Of a stretch of DNA of 52,364 bases, positions 16,105-38,406 are shown piece after piece. Location of the stretch: positions 1 through 52,364 of the IMG/VR virus record IMGVR_UViG_3300030380_005007. One strand, 5' to 3'. Within the stretch, counting starts at the first letter, position 1. Each line of letters begins with the position of its first letter. This DNA is from a virus. Taxonomy: Duplodnaviria > Caudoviricetes. The notes under the pieces are model-generated. The model had not been told where the DNA came from. It searched no databases and was given only the letters and a program-made list of their open reading frames with translations. Made by a program: the position numbers and the translations under genes.

Positions 16105-18190
16105 TACGTTTTGTTGGTCGACCTGTTCCTTTGGCTCTCATATCCTTTTCTTGTATTTCGCCTGAGTTCTTCAAGCGTTCAATAATTTCTTTGACTTCAT
16201 ATGACTTCATTGATCTAAATATTTCACGTCGATCAATATCTCTTTTTGAGATACCCCAATCGCCTTGACTACGAATGAAGTTGAGTATTTGTTTGATACG
16301 TCCTTCCATTTCTGAACCTGCAACTTTATCTCTACAGTTTTCTATCAATACTTGATCGTAGTAATTAACATAATTAATTGCCCAAAGAGTCACATCAGCG
16401 TTGATTTGTTTTGCGTTGCGATCATCAGCTAGAGCACATATCAAAGCTAAACGCATCGACTTCTCACGCGTTCTTGATAGCAACACTTCCAAGCCTTCTT
16501 TTTCTAATTTATTTTGTTGGTCAACAAGATCGTAAGCTAAGCGCTCAAGCAAGCTTTTACTTTCATCTGAGAATGGAATGACACGTTGTTTAAAATCGAT
16601 CTCTGCATTGTTCATTGATATTTGCTCCATTTCATTTTTAGCTTGACGAACATGTTGGACCCAATCCGTTGTTGATCTTGGAGGTTCTACAAATGGCTTC
16701 ATCTTGCCTACTGTTCTTGGTAGATGTGATTCCGTTACGATAAACCTGTTAAGGAATCCGTCAACGATACGACCGGTTGAGAGCGCACCGTAAAAATTCT
16801 TTGGTACGCTCATACCGACCAACGTTATTGCAGGTTTGATAGTTGACCTATCTAGCACTTCTTTTTGTTGTTTCTGCGTTAACGTCATCATCGAATAGTT
16901 GTCAGGGCGTAGGACACCATGACATCTTCCCCATGTCTCCATAAGAACTTGTAAAGCATCTTCTTTGTTTGAATTACTTGCATTAGAAATACTTTCAAGC
17001 CTTTTACCAAATTCATCCATTACAGTTATATGGGCTGGCTTATGTCTAAGCAAAGAGTAAATAGCACCACTTGATGTGTAACCATCTCCTGCCAACAAGT
17101 CTATCTGCTCAGCTTTTTCAAGAATAGCTTCTATAACTGTCTTAACGTTTTCTTTTCCTTGTCCTGATTTAGCAATACACATAAAGAACAAAGATGAAAA
17201 GTTATTCATATCTGTCTTATATATTCTTCCTAAAGCGACAGATGCTAATGCAATTGATGCTTGTAAATTGATTGCAGGCTGAGATATTTGAGCTATGTCT
17301 TCTGCGTAATTATAAACGTCACTTATAATCCCTGGTGGCTTATATAAGTCATTAGGCTCAACGATATCAATTTGTTTAGATATATATGCAGGAGCCTGCT
17401 GGTTTTTTCTTTCGTGCGTTTTTTGAATACTATTAACGGTAGTTTGTATTTCTGATTGCGGAAGTGGTGGATCGTTTTGTTCGTTCCAAGAATTTACAAA
17501 AAAGTGAACGAAATCTAAATTAAGGTTTTTAGCAATTAAGTATCCTGCTAATCTTGCAGCTTGATCATTTCTTGATCCTTCGGTTACGCCGTCAAGCGAA
17601 AGGGGAGTTGCTATGGGTTTTCCATTTACTTTCTCTGCCCCCGTAATCTTTACCCAAAGATCTTTGGTAAAGTCAGGAAGGTCTTCTATCTCATTGAGTT
17701 CCCAATCATGGATGATTGTGGGTTCATAAATGGCTCCTGTTGCATGTATATTGTGTGGTGCAACGATTAGCCCACCAACTCCCCTAATATCAATTAATTT
17801 ATCAGGATCGTGATCTTGGCCTCTTCTAGCTACGTAGGTAGTAAAGTTTTCAGGGTTATTGTAATAGTAGTGAACGCCTTTACCAGTGGCTACTTTAAAA
17901 GGTGTTACAGGTAAATTATTATCTGCCCAATTCACCGCTTCAGGTGTATCAGCATCTACTACAATAAATTTTCCGGTAACAAGAGCTACTACTAAATCAT
18001 CTCTCCCCTTGAACCATTTTTCAATTTCTGCGGTCGTTGGCTGGGTCTGTTGAAACCTTTGCCAACCGCCTAACTCTTTAGGTGGTACTTTATTTGATCT
18101 TAATAAAGGTACGACACTAATGCCTTCTTCATGGTAGGCAAGAGCTAAGTCCAACGCAGAATCTTGCGCTGTTACGTTTATATGAAACAC
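16067..18190 (-). CDS. Bifunctional primase-polymerase (Prim-Pol) + PriCT + DUF3987-like helicase
   Basis: VVDAD, TGKGVHYYY, IDIRGVGGLIVAP (Prim-Pol); EGSRND...PPLP (PriCT); AKSGQGKE Walker A, VMDEFG Walker B. Confidence 0.9.
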   Translation of the reverse strand: MFHINVTAQDSALDLALAYHEEGISVVPLLRSNKVPPKELGGWQRFQQTQPTTAEIEKWFKGRDDLVVALVTGKFIVVDADTPEAVNWADNNLPVTPFKVATGKGVHYYYNNPENFTTYVARRGQDHDPDKLIDIRGVGGLIVAPHNIHATGAIYEPTIIHDWELNEIEDLPDFTKDLWVKITGAEKVNGKPIATPLSLDGVTEGSRNDQAARLAGYLIAKNLNLDFVHFFVNSWNEQNDPPLPQSEIQTTVNSIQKTHERKNQQAPAYISKQIDIVEPNDLYKPPGIISDVYNYAEDIAQISQPAINLQASIALASVALGRIYKTDMNNFSSLFFMCIAKSGQGKENVKTVIEAILEKAEQIDLLAGDGYTSSGAIYSLLRHKPAHITVMDEFGKRLESISNASNSNKEDALQVLMETWGRCHGVLRPDNYSMMTLTQKQQKEVLDRSTIKPAITLVGMSVPKNFYGALSTGRIVDGFLNRFIVTESHLPRTVGKMKPFVEPPRSTTDWVQHVRQAKNEMEQISMNNAEIDFKQRVIPFSDESKSLLERLAYDLVDQQNKLEKEGLEVLLSRTREKSMRLALICALADDRNAKQINADVTLWAINYVNYYDQVLIENCRDKVAGSEMEGRIKQILNFIRSQGDWGISKRDIDRREIFRSMKSYEVKEIIERLKNSGEIQEKDMRAKGTGRPTKRIVAIDPEFFDED

Positions 18191-18192
18191 TA

Positions 18193-18531
18193 CTAACTCG
18201 TTTCTTCAAGTGGTCCATAGATAGATTCAAAGTCAAGCTTACCTCCAGACGCTTGTATTATTTTTTTTGCTTGTTTAATAGAAGGTTGACGTAAACCATA
18301 CCTCCACGATTTTGTTGTTGCTGGTGAGCAACCGAATAATTCAGCCGCTGGCTCAGTGCCAATGAACTCAATATATTCTTTAAGAGTATATCTCTTCACT
18401 TCTCTCTCCTTGTATTGTGGTTCTAATTTATTACTTAGAAATACTGAAAGCTCTTTTTCTGATAGAGTGATTGTTCTCCATAGATAGTTTACTTTCCATT
18501 GATCTTTATGTACTTCGTTCATATGATACAA
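18193..18531 (-). CDS. Cro-like HTH DNA-binding protein
   Basis: TLKEYI...AAELFGCSPATTKSWRYGLRQPS; start may be 18522 (MNEVH). Confidence 0.7.
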   Translation of the reverse strand: MYHMNEVHKDQWKVNYLWRTITLSEKELSVFLSNKLEPQYKEREVKRYTLKEYIEFIGTEPAAELFGCSPATTKSWRYGLRQPSIKQAKKIIQASGGKLDFESIYGPLEETS

Positions 18532-18586: not shown

Positions 18587-18614
18587 ACCTTTTATAAAAA
18601 AAAGGAGAAGATAT

Positions 18615-19322
18615 ATGTCAAATATATTAGATAGAATTGCCTCTCCAAGTGATCTTGTTCAAATGCAAGGAGCTAAGATTCTTGTATTTGGAGCATCTGG
18701 AGCAGGTAAAACCACGCTTTGCGCAACCGCGCCAGGCAAAACTCTCATCATCAGTATGGAAGCTGGTCTTTTATCCATCAAGGATAAAGACAATGTGACC
18801 GCTATTGAGGTAAAGGAAGCATCAGAGATCGAGGAGATCGCTCAACTATTGGAGAGCGGTAAACTTGATTATGATACTGTCTGCCTAGATAGTGTTACTG
18901 AGATGTCAGAAATACTTTTGGCTTCTGAAAAAGCTAGAAGTAAAGACCCAAGACGTGCATATGGAGAGGTCATTGAAGTAATGACTCGAACCATGCGTAG
19001 GTTTAGGGATCTGAAGATTCACGTAATCTTTGTCGCTAAAGAAGACAAGATTCGTGATGAGCAAACCGGTGTGTTTCATCATCAACCAATGATGGTAGGT
19101 GCGAAGTTACCGGTGCAAATTCCTTACTTTTTTGATGAGGTATTGGCTTTAAGAACCTTTACTGAAGAAAATGAAGAAGGTAAAAAAATTATCAATAGAT
19201 GGTTGCAAACCACTATTGGTGATAATTATACCGCTAAGGATAGGAGTGGTAAGTTAGAAACTTTTGAAGAGCCTAACTTAACACATGTCATTAATAAACT
19301 TGGATTTACATTAGGAGAGTAA
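18615..19322 (+). CDS. AAA_24 ATPase (Sak4-like recombination protein)
   Basis: GASGAGKT Walker A, TVCLDSVTE Walker B, AKDRSG C-terminus; next to SSB. Confidence 0.85.
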   Translation: MSNILDRIASPSDLVQMQGAKILVFGASGAGKTTLCATAPGKTLIISMEAGLLSIKDKDNVTAIEVKEASEIEEIAQLLESGKLDYDTVCLDSVTEMSEILLASEKARSKDPRRAYGEVIEVMTRTMRRFRDLKIHVIFVAKEDKIRDEQTGVFHHQPMMVGAKLPVQIPYFFDEVLALRTFTEENEEGKKIINRWLQTTIGDNYTAKDRSGKLETFEEPNLTHVINKLGFTLGE

Positions 19323-32241: not shown

Positions 32242-32434
32242 ACCTTGGAGATCATACTCATACGGCGATCCGTCGCCTTGCACTTGCGGATCCGGAAAGG
32301 ATCGAGCGATCTGCAAGGATCGGCTCGGCAACTTCGTCACTTACTTCTGCGAGGACTGCGAGGATCAGCATCTGCCCAGCTGGGATCCAAGCATATGGAC
32401 CAAGCAGATCCGCTACGAGGAGTGTGATTGGTAA
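32231..32434 (+). CDS. Cys-rich Zn-binding small protein
   Basis: PCTCGSGK (SEC-C-like) and CEDC. Confidence 0.6.
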   Translation: MISRPWRSYSYGDPSPCTCGSGKDRAICKDRLGNFVTYFCEDCEDQHLPSWDPSIWTKQIRYEECDW

Positions 32435-32453
32435 TTAGATCCAACTGGATCGA

Positions 32454-32478
32454 GGGGGCTGATCGCCCCCTTTTTTTT
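32454..32478 (+). terminator. Intrinsic terminator
   Basis: GGGGGC-TGATC-GCCCCC + T8. Confidence 0.85.
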
Positions 32479-32841
32479 GGTCGGGTTGGTCGGGTCGGGT
32501 CGAGGCATACAGATGGATCAGCTTTCTTTTTCTGATCAGCAAATATATAAGTAGCTAAAAAAAAGATCTGATCAACGCTTTTACTGGGCCCAAATATTGT
32601 CCGCCCAGGTCGCCCTGGTTCCTTAACCCAAGGGGGGGAAAGGGGACCAAAAACACCCTTTTTTTTCCAAAAACACCCGGTTTTTGATCAAAAACATGAT
32701 TCTTTTGGATCCAAACTTTAGATCAGATCGGGCTTAATTTGCACCCCCCACCCCCCTAAATCGAGGGGTGTTACCGTATACTAGGTTACAGGCAATAATA
32801 CACATACTAATTCTGGTATTTTTTAACTTTTGAATCTTTGC

Positions 32842-32870
32842 TTGTAAAGGATTCTTTAGTCGGCTATTAT
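32842..32870 (+). promoter_or_regulatory. Putative late-operon promoter
   Basis: TTGTAA-17-TATTAT; predicted +1 at ~32877 coincides with hairpin start. Confidence 0.6.
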
Positions 32871-32876
32871 TCTTAC

Positions 32877-32941
32877 AAGCGAGTAAGGTATTTAGCACTT
32901 CGTTCATACTATCTTCTCCAAGACTTTTGCTTTACTCGCTT
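32877..32941 (+). ncRNA. Putative multi-target antisense hairpin RNA (late leader)
   Basis: AAGCGAGTAA/TTACTCGCTT stem; loop has 10-12 nt perfect complements to five gene starts in this genome. Confidence 0.7.
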
Positions 32942-32968
32942 ACTAAAAAATATATGTAGGAAAAAAAT

Positions 32969-34099
32969 ATGGGTTTATTTTCAAAATTACGTAAAAAAGT
33001 TAAAGCAAAAAAAGTAGCTAAAAAAATTATTTCCCCTAAAATTGCAAAATCAGGACGCGGCGGTATTCTTAACGAAATAAGAGAACGCGGCGGTTTTGCC
33101 GGAGCTATTCCGCTACCGAGAAGAAATCCTTTTATTAATAGGATTAAAGATTTAAATATGGATGACAGAGGAATGATGTTGGATAGGTTTAGACAATTAG
33201 GTAAACCACGTCTAGGTTTCGGTTTAGGAGAACTTCTTCCACGTATTAAAGATAAGGTACCCTTGGCGCCGGTTTTTTCTGGTATGCCGATGCCTCAAAT
33301 GGTAGGTGAACCCCAAATGCTTACGCAGCCAATTTCTAGAGTCCCAGTCGAAGAAAATATTTCTGAAATTTATGACTCTGGCTTTGCGATGCGTGATAAG
33401 CAAATGGATATGATGGAACCAAGAATGATGATGGCGGACGGGGATGTTGCACTTTCAGGAGAAGCTGCAGCCGAAAGTTTAGATAGTTTCTTAAATGCTA
33501 ATCCAGAACAAGTTGAATTTGGAATGGAATCCAGACTTAGAAATGTAACGTTAGAAATGATGGATGCTTTGAGCAGAGGCGATCTGGATGCAGTTAGAGA
33601 ACTTGAAGCAGAAAAAATAATGCTTGAAAAAATGCTTAAAGATAAAAAAATGCCTAAATACGGACCTCCTCCGCAAAGACCAGAGGGTATGGCAGCCGGC
33701 GGCGAAGCTAAACCAGACTTTTTAGATTTCGACAACGACGGCGATAAAGAAGAATCGATGAAACAAGCGCTTCAACAAAAAAATAAATTTGCTGAAGGCG
33801 ACGAAGTCAGTATGATGCTGATGGAAATGGATGAGGGTGATGATATGTCAGAAGAAGAAATGGAAGGCTTAGAAGGTTTAAGCGAAGTATCCGGTCCTGA
33901 AACCGAAATGCTTAACAATATTATTAACCAAATTATTGAACTAATTGCGCAAGGCGCGACTGAAGAGCAAATCATTCAATTCTTGATGGAACAAGGTCTT
34001 GACGAAGAAGATATTACTGAAGTGATGAGCATGCTTTCTCAGGAAATGACTGCAGGTGGAGAAGAGGGTATAGATTCTCAATTAGCTGCTCTCGGCTAA
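32969..34099 (+). CDS. Low-complexity late protein (basic N-terminus, acidic C-terminus, DxDxDG motif)
   Basis: DFLDFDNDGDKEESMK; Met/Glu-rich. Confidence 0.6.
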   Translation: MGLFSKLRKKVKAKKVAKKIISPKIAKSGRGGILNEIRERGGFAGAIPLPRRNPFINRIKDLNMDDRGMMLDRFRQLGKPRLGFGLGELLPRIKDKVPLAPVFSGMPMPQMVGEPQMLTQPISRVPVEENISEIYDSGFAMRDKQMDMMEPRMMMADGDVALSGEAAAESLDSFLNANPEQVEFGMESRLRNVTLEMMDALSRGDLDAVRELEAEKIMLEKMLKDKKMPKYGPPPQRPEGMAAGGEAKPDFLDFDNDGDKEESMKQALQQKNKFAEGDEVSMMLMEMDEGDDMSEEEMEGLEGLSEVSGPETEMLNNIINQIIELIAQGATEEQIIQFLMEQGLDEEDITEVMSMLSQEMTAGGEEGIDSQLAALG

Positions 34100-34100
34100 G

Positions 34101-34442
34101 ATGCAAGATATCGATAAGGCTTTAGCGGAATTAAGCGCTCTTGGTCCTATCTCAGATGATCCTCTGTACTCAATCAGTATGGCGGTCTTTGGTCCAACCG
34201 GTAAATTAAAACTTGCTGATCTTGCTATCGATTTAGCCAAACACTCAAGAATCAAATCGTTAATTAATTCTGGAACTGCTGGAGATCGAGCAGAAGCAAA
34301 AAGAATTTACGAAACAATTAAAATTAAAGATCCAGATAAAGCCAACGAGCTTTATACGGATATGTTAAATGAAGGCAAAAAGATTGTCGGAACCGAAGAT
34401 ATTACCAAGATGGCTAAAGAGTACGGTTTTAAAATAAAGTAA
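34101..34442 (+). CDS. Hypothetical protein
   Basis: 113 aa before terL. Confidence 0.55.
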   Translation: MQDIDKALAELSALGPISDDPLYSISMAVFGPTGKLKLADLAIDLAKHSRIKSLINSGTAGDRAEAKRIYETIKIKDPDKANELYTDMLNEGKKIVGTEDITKMAKEYGFKIK

Positions 34443-34447
34443 AAAGT

Positions 34448-35908
34448 ATGGACCTGTCACATTTGACAGAATCAGAGCTCAAAGAAGCTCTGCTGTTAGT
34501 AGAAAAACAACAAGGCTTCGCCGTTCAGGAGGAGTGTCAACAATCGTTTTTAAAATATATCAATCAGATGTGGCCCGAGTTTATCTGCGGTCGCCATCAT
34601 CAGATTTTTGCCGAGAAACTTGAACAAGTTGCGCAAGGCAAAATCAATCGTTTGATTATCAATATGCCACCTCGTCATACCAAATCTGAATTTGCTTCAA
34701 CGTATTTTCCGTCTTGGATAATGGGTATGCAACCAAAAATGAAAATAATGCAGACCACTCATACCGGCGAACTGGCCGTTAGGTTTGGTAGGAAAGTTAG
34801 AAACTTGATGGAGCAAAAAGAATACAAGCAGGTATTTCCAGATGTAAAGCTGCAAGCCGACAACAAATCAGCCGGTCGTTGGGAAACCAATAAGGGTGGC
34901 GAATACTTTGCAGCGGGTGTTGGTGGAGCCGTAACCGGAAGGGGTGCGGATTTATTAATTATTGATGACCCGCATTCAGAACAAGATGCGCTGTCGCCGA
35001 ATGCGTTGGAGAGTGCGTATGAATGGTACACCTCTGGACCTCGTCAGCGTTTGCAACCCAAAGGCGCGATTGTTATTGTAATGACGCGTTGGTCTTCAAT
35101 CGACTTGACCGCTAAATTACTTGAAGCGCAAAAAGAACCTTTGGCAGATCAATGGGAAGTGATAGAGTTCCCTGCAATTTTTCCTGATACCGAGAAACCT
35201 TTATGGCCTGAGTTTTGGTCGCAAGATGAATTATTGAAAGTTAAGGCGTCGTTGCCTGGCATGAAATGGAATGCTCAGTGGATGCAACAACCAACCGCTG
35301 AAGAGGGATCGATCATCAAACGCGAGTGGTGGCAAAGGTGGGAAAATGATTCCTTGCCGGGCGTAAAATATATTATGCAAAGTTACGATACTGCGTTTTC
35401 CAAAAAACAAACCGCAGACTATTCTGCGATTTCAACTTGGGGTGTATTTAAGCCAACGGAAGATTCACCTGATTGTGTTATCTTATTGGATTCGCAAAAA
35501 GGTCGCTGGGACTTTCCAGAACTTAAAGAAATTGCGATGCGCGAATACCAATATTGGCAATCGGATATGGTTTTGATTGAGGCGAAAGCATCCGGAACTC
35601 CGTTGACGCATGAACTGCGGCGAATGGGAATACCGGTGGTTAATTATTCGCCAACGCGTGGCCATGATAAACATTCAAGAATGCACTCGGTTGCTCCGAT
35701 CTTTGAAGCCGGTATGGTTTGGGCACCCAATCGTATGTTTGCAGAAGATATGATTGAGGAATGTGCTGCATTTCCATTTGGCGCTAATGACGATTTATGT
35801 GATACTATGACCCAAGCGTTAATGCGATTCCGCGAAGGTGGATTTGTTTACTTAGATAGCGATTACGACGACGAAGAACGTGAACCAAGAAAGAGAGTTT
35901 ATTACTAA
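34448..35908 (+). CDS. terL: Terminase large subunit
   Basis: MPPRHTKS Walker A, LLIIDDP Walker B, VMTRW, SYDTA, IEAKASG, DDLCD nuclease motifs. Confidence 0.95.
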   Translation: MDLSHLTESELKEALLLVEKQQGFAVQEECQQSFLKYINQMWPEFICGRHHQIFAEKLEQVAQGKINRLIINMPPRHTKSEFASTYFPSWIMGMQPKMKIMQTTHTGELAVRFGRKVRNLMEQKEYKQVFPDVKLQADNKSAGRWETNKGGEYFAAGVGGAVTGRGADLLIIDDPHSEQDALSPNALESAYEWYTSGPRQRLQPKGAIVIVMTRWSSIDLTAKLLEAQKEPLADQWEVIEFPAIFPDTEKPLWPEFWSQDELLKVKASLPGMKWNAQWMQQPTAEEGSIIKREWWQRWENDSLPGVKYIMQSYDTAFSKKQTADYSAISTWGVFKPTEDSPDCVILLDSQKGRWDFPELKEIAMREYQYWQSDMVLIEAKASGTPLTHELRRMGIPVVNYSPTRGHDKHSRMHSVAPIFEAGMVWAPNRMFAEDMIEECAAFPFGANDDLCDTMTQALMRFREGGFVYLDSDYDDEEREPRKRVYY

Positions 35909-38406
35909 TGGCAATTGAAAGACAGGTACCCGATCCAGCGCAAACAGCTGAACCCGTACAAGATTTAACAACTCAAAGATCAACCGATGATCTTGATGAA
36001 GATATTATTGAAATTTTAGAAGGCTTAGACGAAGAAGAAGGCGTTCAGTTCCAAGAAGATGGTTCTGTCATTTTGGGCGAACCTGATGTTGAAATGCCTG
36101 GACTAGGTTTTGGAGAAAACTTAGCCGAAGTTGTTTCTGAAAATGAACTTGACAAAATATATGTTGAGTTGATGTCTGCTATTGAAAACGACAAGTCTGC
36201 TCGCGAAGACTGGGAGAAAACTTATACCGATGGATTGAAATACCTCGGTATGAAATTTGATGACGAAAGATCAGAGCCGTTTGAAGGAGCGAGTGGCGTG
36301 ATCCATCCTTTGCTTGGAGAGAGTGTGACTCAATTCCAAGCGCAAGCTTACAAAGAATTATTGCCGCCTCAAGGCCCTGTTAAAACTCAGGTCGTAGGTG
36401 AATACAATTCAGCGGTCGAAGAACAAGCGCAACGCGTAAAAGAGTTTATGAATTATCAGATTACTCACGTTATGGAAGAGTATGACGAAGATTTAGATCA
36501 GATGCTTTTTTATCTGCCCCTTGCAGGAAGTGCATTTAAGAAAGTTTATTATGATGAAAATCTAGGCAGAGCAGTTTCTAAGTTTGTAGCTCCAGAAGAT
36601 TTAATCGTTCCTTACTACACCACAGATTTAGAAAACTGTCCTAGAATTACGCATCTAATTAAGATGCCTGAAAACGAAGTTAAAAAACTTCAAGCAATTG
36701 GTTTTTACAGAAACGTAAAAGTTGATACCGGCGATGATAGTACTGTTGATGCTGGATTAGAAAGCGAACAAGAAAAGCTAGAAGGGATAAAACCATCATA
36801 TGATACCGGTGAAGTATGTAATCTTTACGAGATTCATTGCAACTTAGACCTAGAAGGTTTTGAAGATACTGATGAAGACGGTGACTTTACTGAAGTCAAA
36901 CTGCCTTACATCGTAACTATTGATACCAATTCAGATAATATTCTCTCAATCAGAAGAAACTTCGTTGAAGACGATCCGATAAAAAACAAAATTGAATATT
37001 TTGTTCACTTTAAATTTTTGCCTGGATTAGGTTTTTACGGATTTGGTTTAACGCATATGATTGGCGGTTTATCCAAAGCTTCAACCTCAATTGTTAGACA
37101 ATTAATTGATGCTGGAACGTTATCTAACTTACCGGCTGGTTTTAAAACTAGAGGCATTAGAATTAGAGATGAAGATTCTCCGATTCAACCGGGTGAGTTC
37201 AGAGATGTTGATGCTCCAGCAGGAAGTCTTAGGGATGCAATTCAACCGTTGCCGTTCAAAGAGCCAAGCGGAACCTTATTAAATTTATTAGGATTATTAG
37301 TTCAATCAGGACAACGCTTTGCTTCAATCGCTGAAATTAATGTGGGCGAAGGCAACTCTCAAGCTCCAGTCGGAACCACGTTAGCTTTACTCGAAAGGTC
37401 AACCAAAGTTTTATCTGCGATTCATAAACGATTACATGCAGCGCAGAAAAAAGAATTTGATTTACTTGCAGATATTTTTGCTAAGAGCCTTCCAGATGTT
37501 TATCCGTATGCGATAGCTGGTGGAATGATGCAAGTTAAACAAACTGACTTTGATGAAAGAGTAGATGTATTCCCCGTATCAAATCCAGATATATTTTCAA
37601 CCAGTCAAAGAATTGTAATGGCTCAAGAAATGATGCAGTTAGTTCAATCTAATCCGCAGATTCATGGCCCTAACGGTGTGTATGAAGCTTATCGAAGAAT
37701 GTATGCCTCTTTAGGCGTAGATAATATTGATGCTTTATTGGTGCCACCCCCTGATACAGAGCCTAAACCTATCGAAGCTGGTTTTGAAAACTCTGTATTA
37801 CTAGCAGGTGGAGTAGCGCAAGCATTTCCAGAACAAGACCATGATGCTCATATAGCGGTTCATGTTAATTTGTTAAACATGCAGCCGGTCCAAATGAATG
37901 CTCAGGTACAAGCTAACATCTATGCACATATTATGCAGCATTTGCAAATGAAGGCTGATATTATTGCGCAGCAACAAATGCCGCCTGAAGCCTTGCAACA
38001 GTATCAAGGTTTGTTGCAGCAAAGCCAAGCGGTTAGCCCTGTTGAGGCTGGACAGATGACTCAACAAGCAAACTCTATTTTGGCTCAGTTTAGTGCGCCG
38101 ATTATGAATGAATTAATGATGCAGTTTTCTCAACAAGTAGCTGCTCCACCGCAAGAGGATCCTTTAGTATCTATTAGAAAACAAGAGCTTGCTTTAAAAG
38201 GTCAAGAGTTGCAGCAGGATAAAGAACAGTTTGCAGTTAAGGAACAAATTAGAGCTGAGGAGAAAGCAAGACAAGATCAAATAGATCGAGAAAGAATTGA
38301 CGCGCAACGAGATATTGCTAGAATGAGAGATGGTACTGCTCAAGATAGACTTGATCAGCAAAAAGAATTAAAATTAATTGACTTAGGATTAAACCAACTT
38401 AATTAA
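35908..38406 (+). CDS. Portal protein
   Basis: 832 aa directly after terL; GSAFKKVYYD, long Gln-rich C-terminal coil (P22-like). Confidence 0.85.
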   Translation: MAIERQVPDPAQTAEPVQDLTTQRSTDDLDEDIIEILEGLDEEEGVQFQEDGSVILGEPDVEMPGLGFGENLAEVVSENELDKIYVELMSAIENDKSAREDWEKTYTDGLKYLGMKFDDERSEPFEGASGVIHPLLGESVTQFQAQAYKELLPPQGPVKTQVVGEYNSAVEEQAQRVKEFMNYQITHVMEEYDEDLDQMLFYLPLAGSAFKKVYYDENLGRAVSKFVAPEDLIVPYYTTDLENCPRITHLIKMPENEVKKLQAIGFYRNVKVDTGDDSTVDAGLESEQEKLEGIKPSYDTGEVCNLYEIHCNLDLEGFEDTDEDGDFTEVKLPYIVTIDTNSDNILSIRRNFVEDDPIKNKIEYFVHFKFLPGLGFYGFGLTHMIGGLSKASTSIVRQLIDAGTLSNLPAGFKTRGIRIRDEDSPIQPGEFRDVDAPAGSLRDAIQPLPFKEPSGTLLNLLGLLVQSGQRFASIAEINVGEGNSQAPVGTTLALLERSTKVLSAIHKRLHAAQKKEFDLLADIFAKSLPDVYPYAIAGGMMQVKQTDFDERVDVFPVSNPDIFSTSQRIVMAQEMMQLVQSNPQIHGPNGVYEAYRRMYASLGVDNIDALLVPPPDTEPKPIEAGFENSVLLAGGVAQAFPEQDHDAHIAVHVNLLNMQPVQMNAQVQANIYAHIMQHLQMKADIIAQQQMPPEALQQYQGLLQQSQAVSPVEAGQMTQQANSILAQFSAPIMNELMMQFSQQVAAPPQEDPLVSIRKQELALKGQELQQDKEQFAVKEQIRAEEKARQDQIDRERIDAQRDIARMRDGTAQDRLDQQKELKLIDLGLNQLN

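What the first reader, a model, noticed from the sequence alone, without database searches (positions are those of the whole stretch)
32877..32941. One hairpin loop antisense to five replication-phase gene starts: candidate late master sRNA switch
Seen: a 10-bp perfect stem (about 14 bp with GU) begins at the predicted +1 of the TTGTAA-17-TATTAT promoter heading the late operon. Its loop contains ACUUCGUUCAUACUAUCUUCUCC (32897-32919), whose overlapping windows are complementary to five translation starts. (1) 32897-32907 pairs with AUGAACGAAGU of the 24126 minus gene, plus CUCC with its GGAG. (2) 32897-32908 pairs with UAUGAACGAAGU at 18523-18512 (Cro-like gene, which heads the Prim-Pol operon). 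(3) 32904-32914 pairs with AGAUAGUAUGA at 24204-24214. (4) 32910-32919 pairs with GGAGAAGAUA at 18604-18613, extending to 14 bp over the AUG with one bulge. (5) 32903-32912 pairs with AUAGUAUGAA at 25560-25569. Four targets are the first genes of both divergent promoter pairs, and two unrelated genes share the start ATGAACGAAGTA. Inference: onset of late transcription silences replication/recombination mRNAs through one trans-acting RNA, rather than through a protein regulator.
Basis: partly seen in the sequence, partly recalled or inferred. Interest (0 to 1): 0.92.

Follow-up and report, generated by a model that had tools for sequence, protein, structure and literature searches.

The report
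Conserved late-leader hairpin with anti-start loop
A conserved RNA hairpin at the very start of this marine phage's late (packaging and structural) operon shows an open loop that mirrors gene start signals and changes together with the start of an early repressor gene, so it may be an RNA switch that silences early genes, though no transcript has been seen.

Summary
The hairpin at 32877-32941 and all five listed complementarities are in the sequence. The reverse complement of the loop reads as a ribosome-binding site plus ATG, so matches to gene starts are partly expected. With an unbiased gene set, 9 of 82 other start regions do as well as the loop.

The element is nonetheless real. Versions occur in at least 14 related marine phage contigs, always just after a -10-like box at the head of the late operon. 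Stem sequences differ but stay paired: 162 Watson-Crick pairs, 32 G.U and 0 A.C, so the fold belongs to the late-sense RNA. TTCTCC is present in all 12 loop variants compared.

The loop tracks the first codons of the early repressor (cro-like) gene 10-14 kb away. The match is AACGAAGT in the window, AACAAAGC in G002 and AGCGAAGT in G005 and G007, and each record matches its own version. One lineage pairs imperfectly and one distant genome shows no match.

Best reading (about 0.5): an antisense loop in the late leader that blocks early translation starts. Rivals are a shared DNA operator, a purely cis-acting leader, or a minus-strand mini-ORF. No transcript was seen and there is no Rfam match. 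I rate it a new variant of a known kind.

The parts
32793..32963 (+). Conserved block holding promoter, hairpin and leader; the flanks are variable
   Evidence: blastn to L002 (95%) and L025 (87%) covers only this part of the intergenic region. A DNA-run joint at 32502->32793 shows the upstream flank is replaceable.
32842..32870 (+). Promoter-like site TTGTAA-17-TATTAT, with the -10 at 32865-32870
   Evidence: Found by the scan, not significant alone. A -10-like hexamer lies 3-15 nt before the helix in all 14 instances.
32877..32890 (+). 5' arm of the hairpin
32891..32927 (+). Open 37-nt loop. It holds the anti-start segment 32897-32908 (CAT at 32905-32907) and the anti-SD TTCTCC at 32914-32919
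   Evidence: Unpaired in the MFE and centroid structures. TTCTCC is present in all 12 loop variants compared, and G[T/C]TCA in 10 of 12.
32928..32941 (+). 3' arm of the hairpin
   Evidence: 32934 A>G in three DNA runs turns U-A into U.G.
32942..32968 (+). A/U-rich linker with a weak SD before the first late gene
32969..34099 (+). First late gene (376 aa, unknown function), followed by TerL at 34448-35908 and portal at 35908-38406
   Evidence: Three perfect RNA-library contigs lie inside it.
18512..18523 (-). Start of the cro-like repressor gene (18193-18522); proposed main target, 12 nt complementary to 32897-32908
   Evidence: phrog_35 transcriptional repressor, E = 2e-6. Co-varies with the loop in other records.
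18604..18613 (+). SD region of the divergent AAA_24 ATPase gene (18615-19322), 10 nt complementary to 32910-32919
24116..24126 (-). Start of a 60-aa gene (23944-24126), 11 nt complementary
   Evidence: The TIRs of its orthologs match the loops of G005, G006 and G007 through a 12-nt SD segment.
25766..25776 (+).
24204..24214 (+).
   Evidence: Exact 11-nt match. The ORF overlaps minus-strand ORF 24159-24422.
25560..25569 (+).
   Evidence: Exact 10-nt match. The ORF overlaps minus-strand ORF 25510-25692.
32734..32907 (-). 57-aa minus-strand ORF whose SD and ATG are the loop's reverse complement; judged not to be a conserved gene
32452..32472 (+). Terminator-like hairpin ending the preceding + strand operon

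Best explanation
The element is a conserved structured 5' leader of the late (packaging and structural) operon. Late transcription starts a few bases before 32877. The first 65 nt fold into a 12-14 bp helix that holds a 37-nt loop open. The loop carries the complement of a translation start: UUCUCC (anti-SD) and ACUUCGUUCAU (anti-AUG plus codons 2-4).

Proposed mechanism, which is inferred. The loop pairs in trans with the start region of the mRNA for the early cro-like repressor that heads the Prim-Pol operon. It pairs more weakly with the SD or start regions of other first genes of the early divergent units (the AAA_24 ATPase, the 60-aa gene at 24126, the ATG at 25767). Pairing would block ribosome binding once late transcripts accumulate.

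Shown here: the structure, its strand, its position, its conservation, and the co-variation with the repressor start. Inferred: transcription from this promoter, the pairing itself, and repression.
For: 1. Conservation. The element was detected in 11 of 80 loci fetched through TerL: L002, L012, L014, L015 (partial), L017, L018, L022, L023, L025, L029 and L032. It was also found in the records G005, G006, G007, G018, G011, G012, L209, L352, G020, G023, G025, G028 and L418.

2. Stem covariation. In 7 sequences and 8 pairs, 100% of cells pair and 3 pairs carry changes on both sides. No shuffle of 500 reaches the covariation score, and slid controls pair only 23-43%. In 4 sequences and 12 pairs, 100% pair and 2 pairs carry double changes.

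3. Strand. Over 14 instances the helix has 162 Watson-Crick pairs, 32 G.U, 0 A.C and 2 other. In the five instances found by sequence similarity alone the count is 12 G.U to 0 A.C.

4. Position. A -10-like hexamer lies 3-15 nt before the helix in all 14 instances. The first late ATG follows 10-30 nt after it, although the first late gene differs between relatives.

5. Loop versus the cro start within one record:
- window: 12 nt, TATGAACGAAGT
- L025/L100 record: ATGAA[C/T]GAAGTGC, 13 nt with one G.U
- G002: TGAACAAAGC, 10 nt
- G005 and G006: TGAGCGAAGT, 10 nt
- G007: TGAGCGAAGT, 10 nt
The 9- or 10-mer occurs only at the element and the cro start in G005 and in the 20.8-kb G002 locus.

6. Unpaired contigs fit the same scheme. 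The L029 loop matches the MNKT-class cro start over 15 nt, and the L017 loop matches the MNKE class over 11 nt.

7. The SD part of the loop matches the SD region of the AAA_24 gene. The match is 10 nt in the window and in the L025 record, 9 nt in G002 and 11 nt in G007. That TIR ranks 1st in duplex energy in G005, G006 and G007 and 2nd of 74 in G002.

8. In a G002-like lineage another early gene starts GTGAACAAAGCT, a 12-nt match to the G002-type loop.

9. The loop and the cro start are both unpaired in MFE folds.
Against: - There is no evidence of a transcript or a 5' end. The one RNA library has contigs only inside the 376-aa gene, and DNA carry-over cannot be excluded.
- L012 lineage, cro read in five loci (L352, L351, L358, L336, L354), with the element found in L352 and in the records of L351 and L358 (G023, G025). 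The loop keeps AACGAAGTGC while cro starts ATGAGAGAAGTAG. That gives 10 positions with one G.U and one mismatch.
- In G011 the loop is start-like but has no target of 10 nt or more in the 48-kb contig, and its cro start does not match. G012 matches by only 9 nt, in another register.
- By duplex energy the cro start is not among the top 6 in any genome.
- Start-like sequences hit other starts often.
- Only about three independent mirrored substitutions underlie the covariation. My rough estimate of P between 1e-3 and 1e-2 is hand reasoning, not a computed test.
- The window has no terminator after the hairpin, so a discrete small RNA is not indicated.
Confidence: 0.5

Rival explanations
1. Shared DNA operator. 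The 10-12 bp shared by the loop, the cro start and other early starts is the binding site of a DNA-binding regulator, most simply the cro-like repressor itself. It would autoregulate at its own start and block late transcription as a roadblock about 20-30 bp after the late start site. The hairpin would then be an unrelated leader feature.
For: - The target gene belongs to a repressor family.
- The sites lie in three regulatory regions.
- Site and protein could co-evolve, which would also give lineage-specific pairs.
- Relatives carry a partial direct repeat, ATGAACGG, 16 nt upstream of the cro ATG.
- TATGAACG occurs 5 times against 1.36 expected.
Against: - The site is not palindromic or repeated inside the element.
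- It coincides exactly with start codons plus codons 2-4 in every case, and its variation follows the amino-acid changes MNEV, MSEV and MNKA.
- It does not explain the TTCTCC shared by all loop variants, the open loop, or the strand-specific helix.
- C-to-T changes in the target that keep G.U pairing are left uncompensated (L025 record). This fits RNA pairing better.
Confidence: 0.15
2. Cis-acting leader only. The 5'-terminal helix protects or regulates the late mRNA itself, through stability, promoter-proximal control or control of first-gene translation by the anti-SD. The resemblance to early starts has no function in trans.
For: - The helix begins at the predicted start site in all instances, as stabilising 5' hairpins do (recalled knowledge).
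- The most conserved loop letters are the anti-SD TTCTCC, not the cro-matching part.
- G011 and G012 keep the element without a clear target.
- Some relatives have GGAGAA as the SD of the first late gene, 10-20 nt after the helix.
Against: - It does not explain the mirrored changes with the cro start in G002, G005 and G007.
- It does not explain why the exact 9- or 10-mer occurs only at those two places in G005 and G002.
- The first late genes of L017 and L018 have no SD to sequester, and the window has only AGGAA.
Confidence: 0.22
3. A real minus-strand translation start. The loop's reverse complement is the SD and start codon of a short minus-strand ORF or leader peptide.
For: - There is a canonical SD spacing of 5-8 nt in most variants (3 nt in L029).
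- The start codon varies among ATG, TTG and GTG and is never CTG.
- The second codon is AAC or AGC in the 11 instances translated.
Against: - The ORFs are 14-57 aa, and only MN(K/E) is shared, in 10 of the 11 instances (L032 reads MSV); frame-shifting indels separate variants.
- There is no family hit.
- All 32 G.U pairs would be C.A mismatches on that strand.
- No minus-strand promoter was found by the scan.
- A start-like reverse complement is exactly what an anti-start RNA must have.
Confidence: 0.08
4. Chance. A hairpin that happens to lie before the late operon, with loop matches picked after the fact.
For: Start-like 23- to 37-mers often have several matches of 10 nt. The promoter scan is not significant.
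Against: Conservation, stem covariation and co-variation with cro across lineages.
Confidence: 0.03

Closest known systems
Phage antisense RNAs: lambda OOP (against cII) and P22 sar (against ant)
   Same: They are short phage RNAs that control a regulator of the developmental switch by base pairing. They are listed in passages of the review PMC5415839.
   Different: Those are cis-antisense, transcribed opposite their target. Here the proposed target lies 10-14 kb away, the pairing is only 10-13 nt, and the RNA is the leader of the late operon.
P1/P7 c4 antisense RNA of the immI operon
   Same: It is a structured RNA from the 5' part of an operon whose exposed segments pair with a ribosome-binding region elsewhere and block translation of a developmental regulator.
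   Different: c4 acts on its own operon's mRNA and is cut out by processing. No similarity of sequence or fold was tested, and there is no Rfam match here.
Short leader RNAs from lambdoid late promoters (lambda 6S, StxS; recalled) and lambda PreS (bioRxiv 10.1101/2024.10.31.621285; only the search listing and the start of the abstract were seen)
   Same: The idea is the same: RNA made at or near a phage promoter acts in trans as a base-pairing regulator.
   Different: Those regulate host genes, and 6S/StxS end at a terminator that is read through by Q. The window has no terminator after the hairpin, and the proposed targets are the phage's own early genes.
T4 RegA translational repressor (review PMC3014915; search listing only)
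   Same: It gives coordinated shut-off of several early mRNAs at their translation initiation regions.
   Different: RegA is a protein. Here the candidate effector is an RNA loop.
5'-terminal stabiliser hairpins of bacterial and phage mRNAs (recalled)
   Same: The helix starts at the first transcribed bases of a long mRNA.
   Different: Stabilisers need no conserved 37-nt loop, and none is known to me to co-vary with another gene's start.

Membership tests
Any curated Rfam family | Covariance-model score at the gathering threshold, or E <= 1 | tested here: not met
   0 matches in the whole window at gathering. 0 matches at E <= 1 in 32750-33000.
Intrinsic terminator | G+C-rich stem, 3-8 nt loop, U tract directly after | tested here: not met
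   The scan reports none at 32877-32941. The loop is 37 nt and is followed by ACTAAAAAA. A T run does follow the helix in L012, L032, G005 and G007, so partial termination there is open.
Small protein gene on the minus strand (32734-32907) | ORF length and sequence conserved in relatives; family match | tested here: not met
   ORFs are 14-57 aa, and only MN(K/E) is shared, in 10 of 11 instances (L032 reads MSV). No PHROG hit.
Trans-acting base-pairing RNA that blocks a translation start | Accessible single-stranded segment complementary to the target start region | tested here: met
   The loop is open in the MFE and centroid structures. There is 12-nt exact complementarity to the cro start, and the target is unpaired in the MFE.
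Trans-acting base-pairing RNA that blocks a translation start | Pairing kept by co-variation in relatives | tested here: inconclusive
   Kept in 5 of 8 lineages with both parts known: window/G001, L025 record, G002, G005/G006/G018, G007. Imperfect in the L012 class, a 9-nt match in another register in G012, and none in G011.
Trans-acting base-pairing RNA that blocks a translation start | The RNA is made, and it represses the target | not testable with these tools
   The RNA-library contigs cover only 33405-34107. No reporter or infection data exist.
Cis-antisense RNA (OOP or sar type) | Encoded opposite its target | tested here: not met
   The targets lie at 18.5 and 24.1 kb and the element at 32.9 kb.
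Operator of a helix-turn-helix repressor | Dyad-symmetric or repeated half-sites near promoters | tested here: inconclusive
   No dyad or repeat lies inside the element. A partial direct repeat lies upstream of cro in relatives. The motif is enriched in the window.
5'-terminal mRNA stabiliser hairpin | The helix starts within a few bases of the transcript's 5' end | tested here: inconclusive
   The position of the -10-like box predicts this in 14 of 14 instances, but no 5' end has been mapped.

The most novel reading that the evidence does not exclude
A family of late-operon leader RNAs in a widespread clade of uncultured marine phages acts as an 'anti-start' RNA. Its open loop co-evolves with the first codons of the early repressor gene and with the ribosome-binding sites of other early first genes. 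The mere onset of late transcription would then switch off translation of the early repressor and replication programme. Together with the repressor, this would form an RNA-protein toggle for the early-to-late transition.
Probability: 0.4. Interest if true: 0.8.

Novelty: new variant of a known kind. Interest (0 to 1): 0.66.

Why it matters
Early-to-late switching in phages is usually explained by proteins: sigma factors, antiterminators, repressors and translational repressors such as RegA. This element would instead be a late mRNA leader that silences early starts by pairing, with the seed evolving in step with the target's first codons. That would be a compact, RNA-based way to make the switch irreversible.

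The element is a new conserved RNA structure with no Rfam family. It occurs in phages whose terminase is 58-60% identical to those of HTVC023P-type pelagiphages, a group described as abundant in the ocean (search listing). The prediction is directly testable with two in vitro transcripts or a two-plasmid reporter, even though the host is unknown.

If the DNA-operator rival is right, the finding still identifies the operator and regulon of the early repressor.

Tried and rejected
- Minus-strand gene. The 57-aa ORF has a perfect SD and ATG, but it is not conserved and has no family. Rejected as a gene.
- Terminator or Rfam family. None found. No tRNA.
- DNA similarity to deposited phages. None for 32400-33400.
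- The 376-aa protein found no relatives by pattern scan.
- Duplex-energy ranking. It favours long interrupted SD-containing duplexes and does not single out cro. I used it only for the AAA_24 and 24126-ortholog rankings.
- Model R1 finds only window-like variants plus weak L032 and L018. R2 finds the MNK-type variants plus L170, L172 and L032. Neither finds all variants.
- RNAalifold on 13 sequences gave no structure because MAFFT misaligned the 3' arms. I therefore counted pairs on two sub-alignments.
1 of 80 loci was real by R2 (L209), and 0 of 39 further loci.
- Element not found:
  - G008, G009, G010, G013 by the hairpin scan.
  - G014-G017, G019, G022, G024, G026, G027 by pattern only.
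  - The G021 hit is an ordinary gene start.
  - 13-kb regions of HTVC027P and 023Pt_psg01.
  - L397 1-2500.
  These are fragments or distant relatives, so absence is not shown.
- The searches for more same-record pairs through the helicase and a 284-aa protein added only the L012 class and L418, which has no cro in its contig.
- Sequencing runs. The RNA run X1 holds 8% of the sampled words and lies only on 33405-34107 and two short TerL pieces. The lack of cover over the hairpin says nothing.
- Literature. Three full-text searches listed no description of this element. I read only passages of PMC5415839. Supplements were not consulted.
- No structure or complex prediction was run.

Full report
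WHAT THE WINDOW IS. The window is a whole IMG/VR virus record of 52,364 bp, 38% G+C, with estimated completeness of 96%. The finding lies in a 535-bp gap. On one side is a + strand operon that ends with a terminator-like hairpin at 32452-32472. On the other is the + strand operon that begins at 32969 and carries the large terminase (34448-35908) and portal (35908-38406). The nearest deposited phages by terminase are phage 023Pt_psg01, phage DSL-LC04 and Pelagibacter phages HTVC027P and HTVC023P, at 58-63% identity. The host is not known.

THE OBSERVATION. The hairpin is as described. It has a 10-bp perfect stem, 14 bp with two G.U pairs, and a 37-nt loop. MFE is -17.5 kcal/mol and z = -3.2. 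All five complementarities are exact.

It heads a 57-aa minus-strand ORF. So 'antisense to five starts' also means 'looks like a start'.

I tested that null:
No shuffle of 5000 and none of 82 other antisense starts reaches 5 (maximum 4).
- Against an unbiased set of 83 genes it scores 2, and 9 of 82 other starts reach that.
- Genome-wide, the 37-nt loop has 11 matches of 10 nt or more. 10.7% of genomic 37-mers and 12 of 83 start windows reach 11.

The number of targets is therefore not strong evidence by itself. More specific is the 9-mer TGAACGAAG. It occurs exactly four times, each at an ATG: 18513, 24117, 25768 and 32898.

THE ELEMENT IS CONSERVED AND STRUCTURED.
- Among 80 loci fetched through the terminase, only 32793-32963 of the intergenic region finds relatives by blastn.
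- Alignment shows a nearly invariant loop and stems that change on both sides.
- A hairpin-plus-motif scan and two covariance models raised the count to 11 of the 80 loci. Many of the other loci lack upstream sequence.
- Further copies turned up in other records.
- Stem sequences differ widely. Examples are GCGAGTAAGG, GCAGGTAAGG, TTGCAGGTAAG, GTTACAGGTAG, GTTGTAGGTGAA and GCAGACTCAGAC. All stay paired.
- Pair counts: 100% of cells paired, with 3 of 8 pairs changed on both sides; 0 of 500 shuffles reach the covariation score, and slid controls pair 23-43%. In the second sub-alignment 100% pair, with 2 of 12 pairs changed on both sides.

WHICH STRAND FOLDS. Over 14 instances the helix has 162 Watson-Crick pairs, 32 G.U pairs, no A.C and 2 other. 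On the minus strand every G.U would be a C.A mismatch. Nine instances were found with a stem finder that allowed G.U. The five found by sequence similarity alone still give 12 G.U to 0 A.C. A population variant in three DNA runs, 32934 A>G, turns U-A into U.G.

A -10-like hexamer (TATAAT, TATTAT, TATCAT, TATACT or TAGAAT) lies 3-15 nt before the helix in all 14 instances. The first late ATG follows 10-30 nt after it, even though the first late gene differs between relatives. The minus-strand ORFs are 14-57 aa and share only MN(K/E), in 10 of the 11 instances (L032 reads MSV). The element is therefore best read as the 5' end of the late transcript.

THE LOOP. Across 12 variants TTCTCC is present in all. 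It is the complement of GGAGAA, the usual SD of this phage's early genes. G[T/C]TCA is present in 10 of 12; G011 has ACTCA and G012 lacks it. The spacing between the two boxes varies from 1 to 8 nt.

THE LINK TO THE EARLY REPRESSOR GENE. The 109-aa gene at 18193-18522 has no Pfam hit. It matches PHROG 35, transcriptional repressor, at E = 2e-6. It heads the Prim-Pol operon and diverges from an AAA_24 ATPase gene. Its orthologs start in several ways: ATGAACGAAGTA, ATGAATGAAGTG, ATGAGCGAAGTC, ATGAGTGAAGTC, ATGAACAAAGCA, ATGAACAAAGAA and ATGAACAAAACA (79 loci read).

Where loop and gene lie on one record, the loop follows the gene:
- window and G001: 12 nt
- L025/L100 record: 13 nt with one G.U
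- G002: TGAACAAAGC
- G005, G006 and G007: TGAGCGAAGT
- G018: the same by pattern only

In G005, and in the 20.8-kb G002 locus, the exact 9- or 10-mer occurs only at these two places. Loops on short contigs fit cro classes seen on other contigs: L029 and L209 with MNKT over 15 nt, and L017 with MNKE over 11 nt. The changes that break pairing (GAA to AAA, GT to GC) are mirrored in the loop. C-to-T changes that keep a G.U are not mirrored.

COUNTER-EXAMPLES.
- L012 class: I read cro in five loci, and the element was found in L352 and in the records of two of the others (G023, G025). The loop is unchanged while cro starts ATGAGAGAAGTAG. That gives one G.U and one mismatch in ten positions.
- G011: the loop is start-like, but no target of 10 nt or more exists in the 48-kb contig.
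- G012: only a 9-nt match, in another register.

OTHER TARGETS.
- The SD part of the loop matches the AAA_24 SD region: 10 nt in the window and in the L025 record, 9 nt in G002, 11 nt in G007, and 6+6 with one mismatch in G005. That start ranks first by duplex energy in G005, G006 and G007 and second of 74 in G002. SD-containing matches are partly generic.
- Orthologs of the 24126 gene match the G005, G006 and G007 loops by a 12-nt SD segment. In G002 the match is only 8 nt.
- In a G002-like lineage another early gene starts GTGAACAAAGCT, 12 nt of the G002-type loop.

INTERPRETATION. The data fit a late-leader RNA whose open loop is antisense to early translation starts, above all that of the repressor gene. 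They do not prove it. No transcript or 5' end was seen, pairing is short and A/U-rich, and only about three independent mirrored substitutions support co-evolution. A shared DNA operator explains the co-variation too. It does not explain the coincidence with start codons, the conserved anti-SD, or the strand-specific open-loop hairpin. A purely cis-acting leader explains the helix and the anti-SD but not the mirrored changes.

My confidences are: antisense leader 0.5, cis-only leader 0.22, operator 0.15, minus-strand mini-ORF 0.08, and chance 0.03.

COMPARISON WITH WHAT IS KNOWN. In logic it works like the phage antisense controls OOP and sar (passages of PMC5415839) and P1 c4 (recalled). It is not cis-encoded and has no Rfam family. 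It sits at the 5' end of a late structural operon and would act on the phage's own early genes. Three full-text searches listed no description of it. I rate it a new variant of a known kind, with interest 0.66.

Noticed in passing
window 24116-25948: Six of the 11 genome-wide matches of 10 nt or more to the loop's reverse complement fall in this 1.85-kb stretch of small early ORFs: 24116, 24204, 24919, 25560, 25766 and 25939. That is far more than its 3.5% share of the genome would give.
   Followed up: partly
window 32740-32775: A C-rich tract followed by a small hairpin (CACCCCCCACCCCCCTAAATCGAGGGGTG) lies just upstream of the conserved block. It is absent from L002, and a DNA-run joint at 32502->32793 skips it. 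It is a variable insert of unknown role.
   Followed up: no
window 32969-34099 and relatives: The first late gene differs between relatives: the 376-aa MGLFSK protein here and in L002, MANGF/MANVL proteins in L025, L029, L032 and G007, and MSKKFSH/MAKKFSH proteins in L017 and L018. The leader element is kept in all of them, so a mosaic joint lies right after it.
   Followed up: partly
L017, L018, L022, L032, L170, L172: about 20 nt upstream of the helix: CCCTATT (CCCTTAG in L002 and L025) lies 4-6 nt before the -10-like box in most relatives. It may be part of a special late promoter.
   Followed up: no
L092-L101, positions about 580-600: A partial direct repeat, ATGAACGG, lies 16 nt upstream of the cro ATGAACGAAG / ATGAATGAAG start. 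It could be a second pairing site or an operator half-site.
   Followed up: no
L327 3190-3620 (Pelagibacter phage HTVC027P, record 17702-18132): The 550-bp gap before that phage's late operon is unusually G+C-rich and looks structured. It has no match to my models and was not searched against Rfam.
   Followed up: no
window 18522, 24126, 25767: Three genes or candidate starts begin ATGAACGAAG (MNEV, MNEV, MNED). The protein sequences read (cro-like; 24126 gene, recorded in the notes) show no likeness beyond the first four residues.
   Followed up: partly
window 32840-32973: In three DNA runs the summed contig depth peaks over the element relative to its flanks: 147, 58 and 73 against 22, 16 and 8 in the next bin. 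This fits the element being shared by more strains than its neighbours.
   Followed up: no
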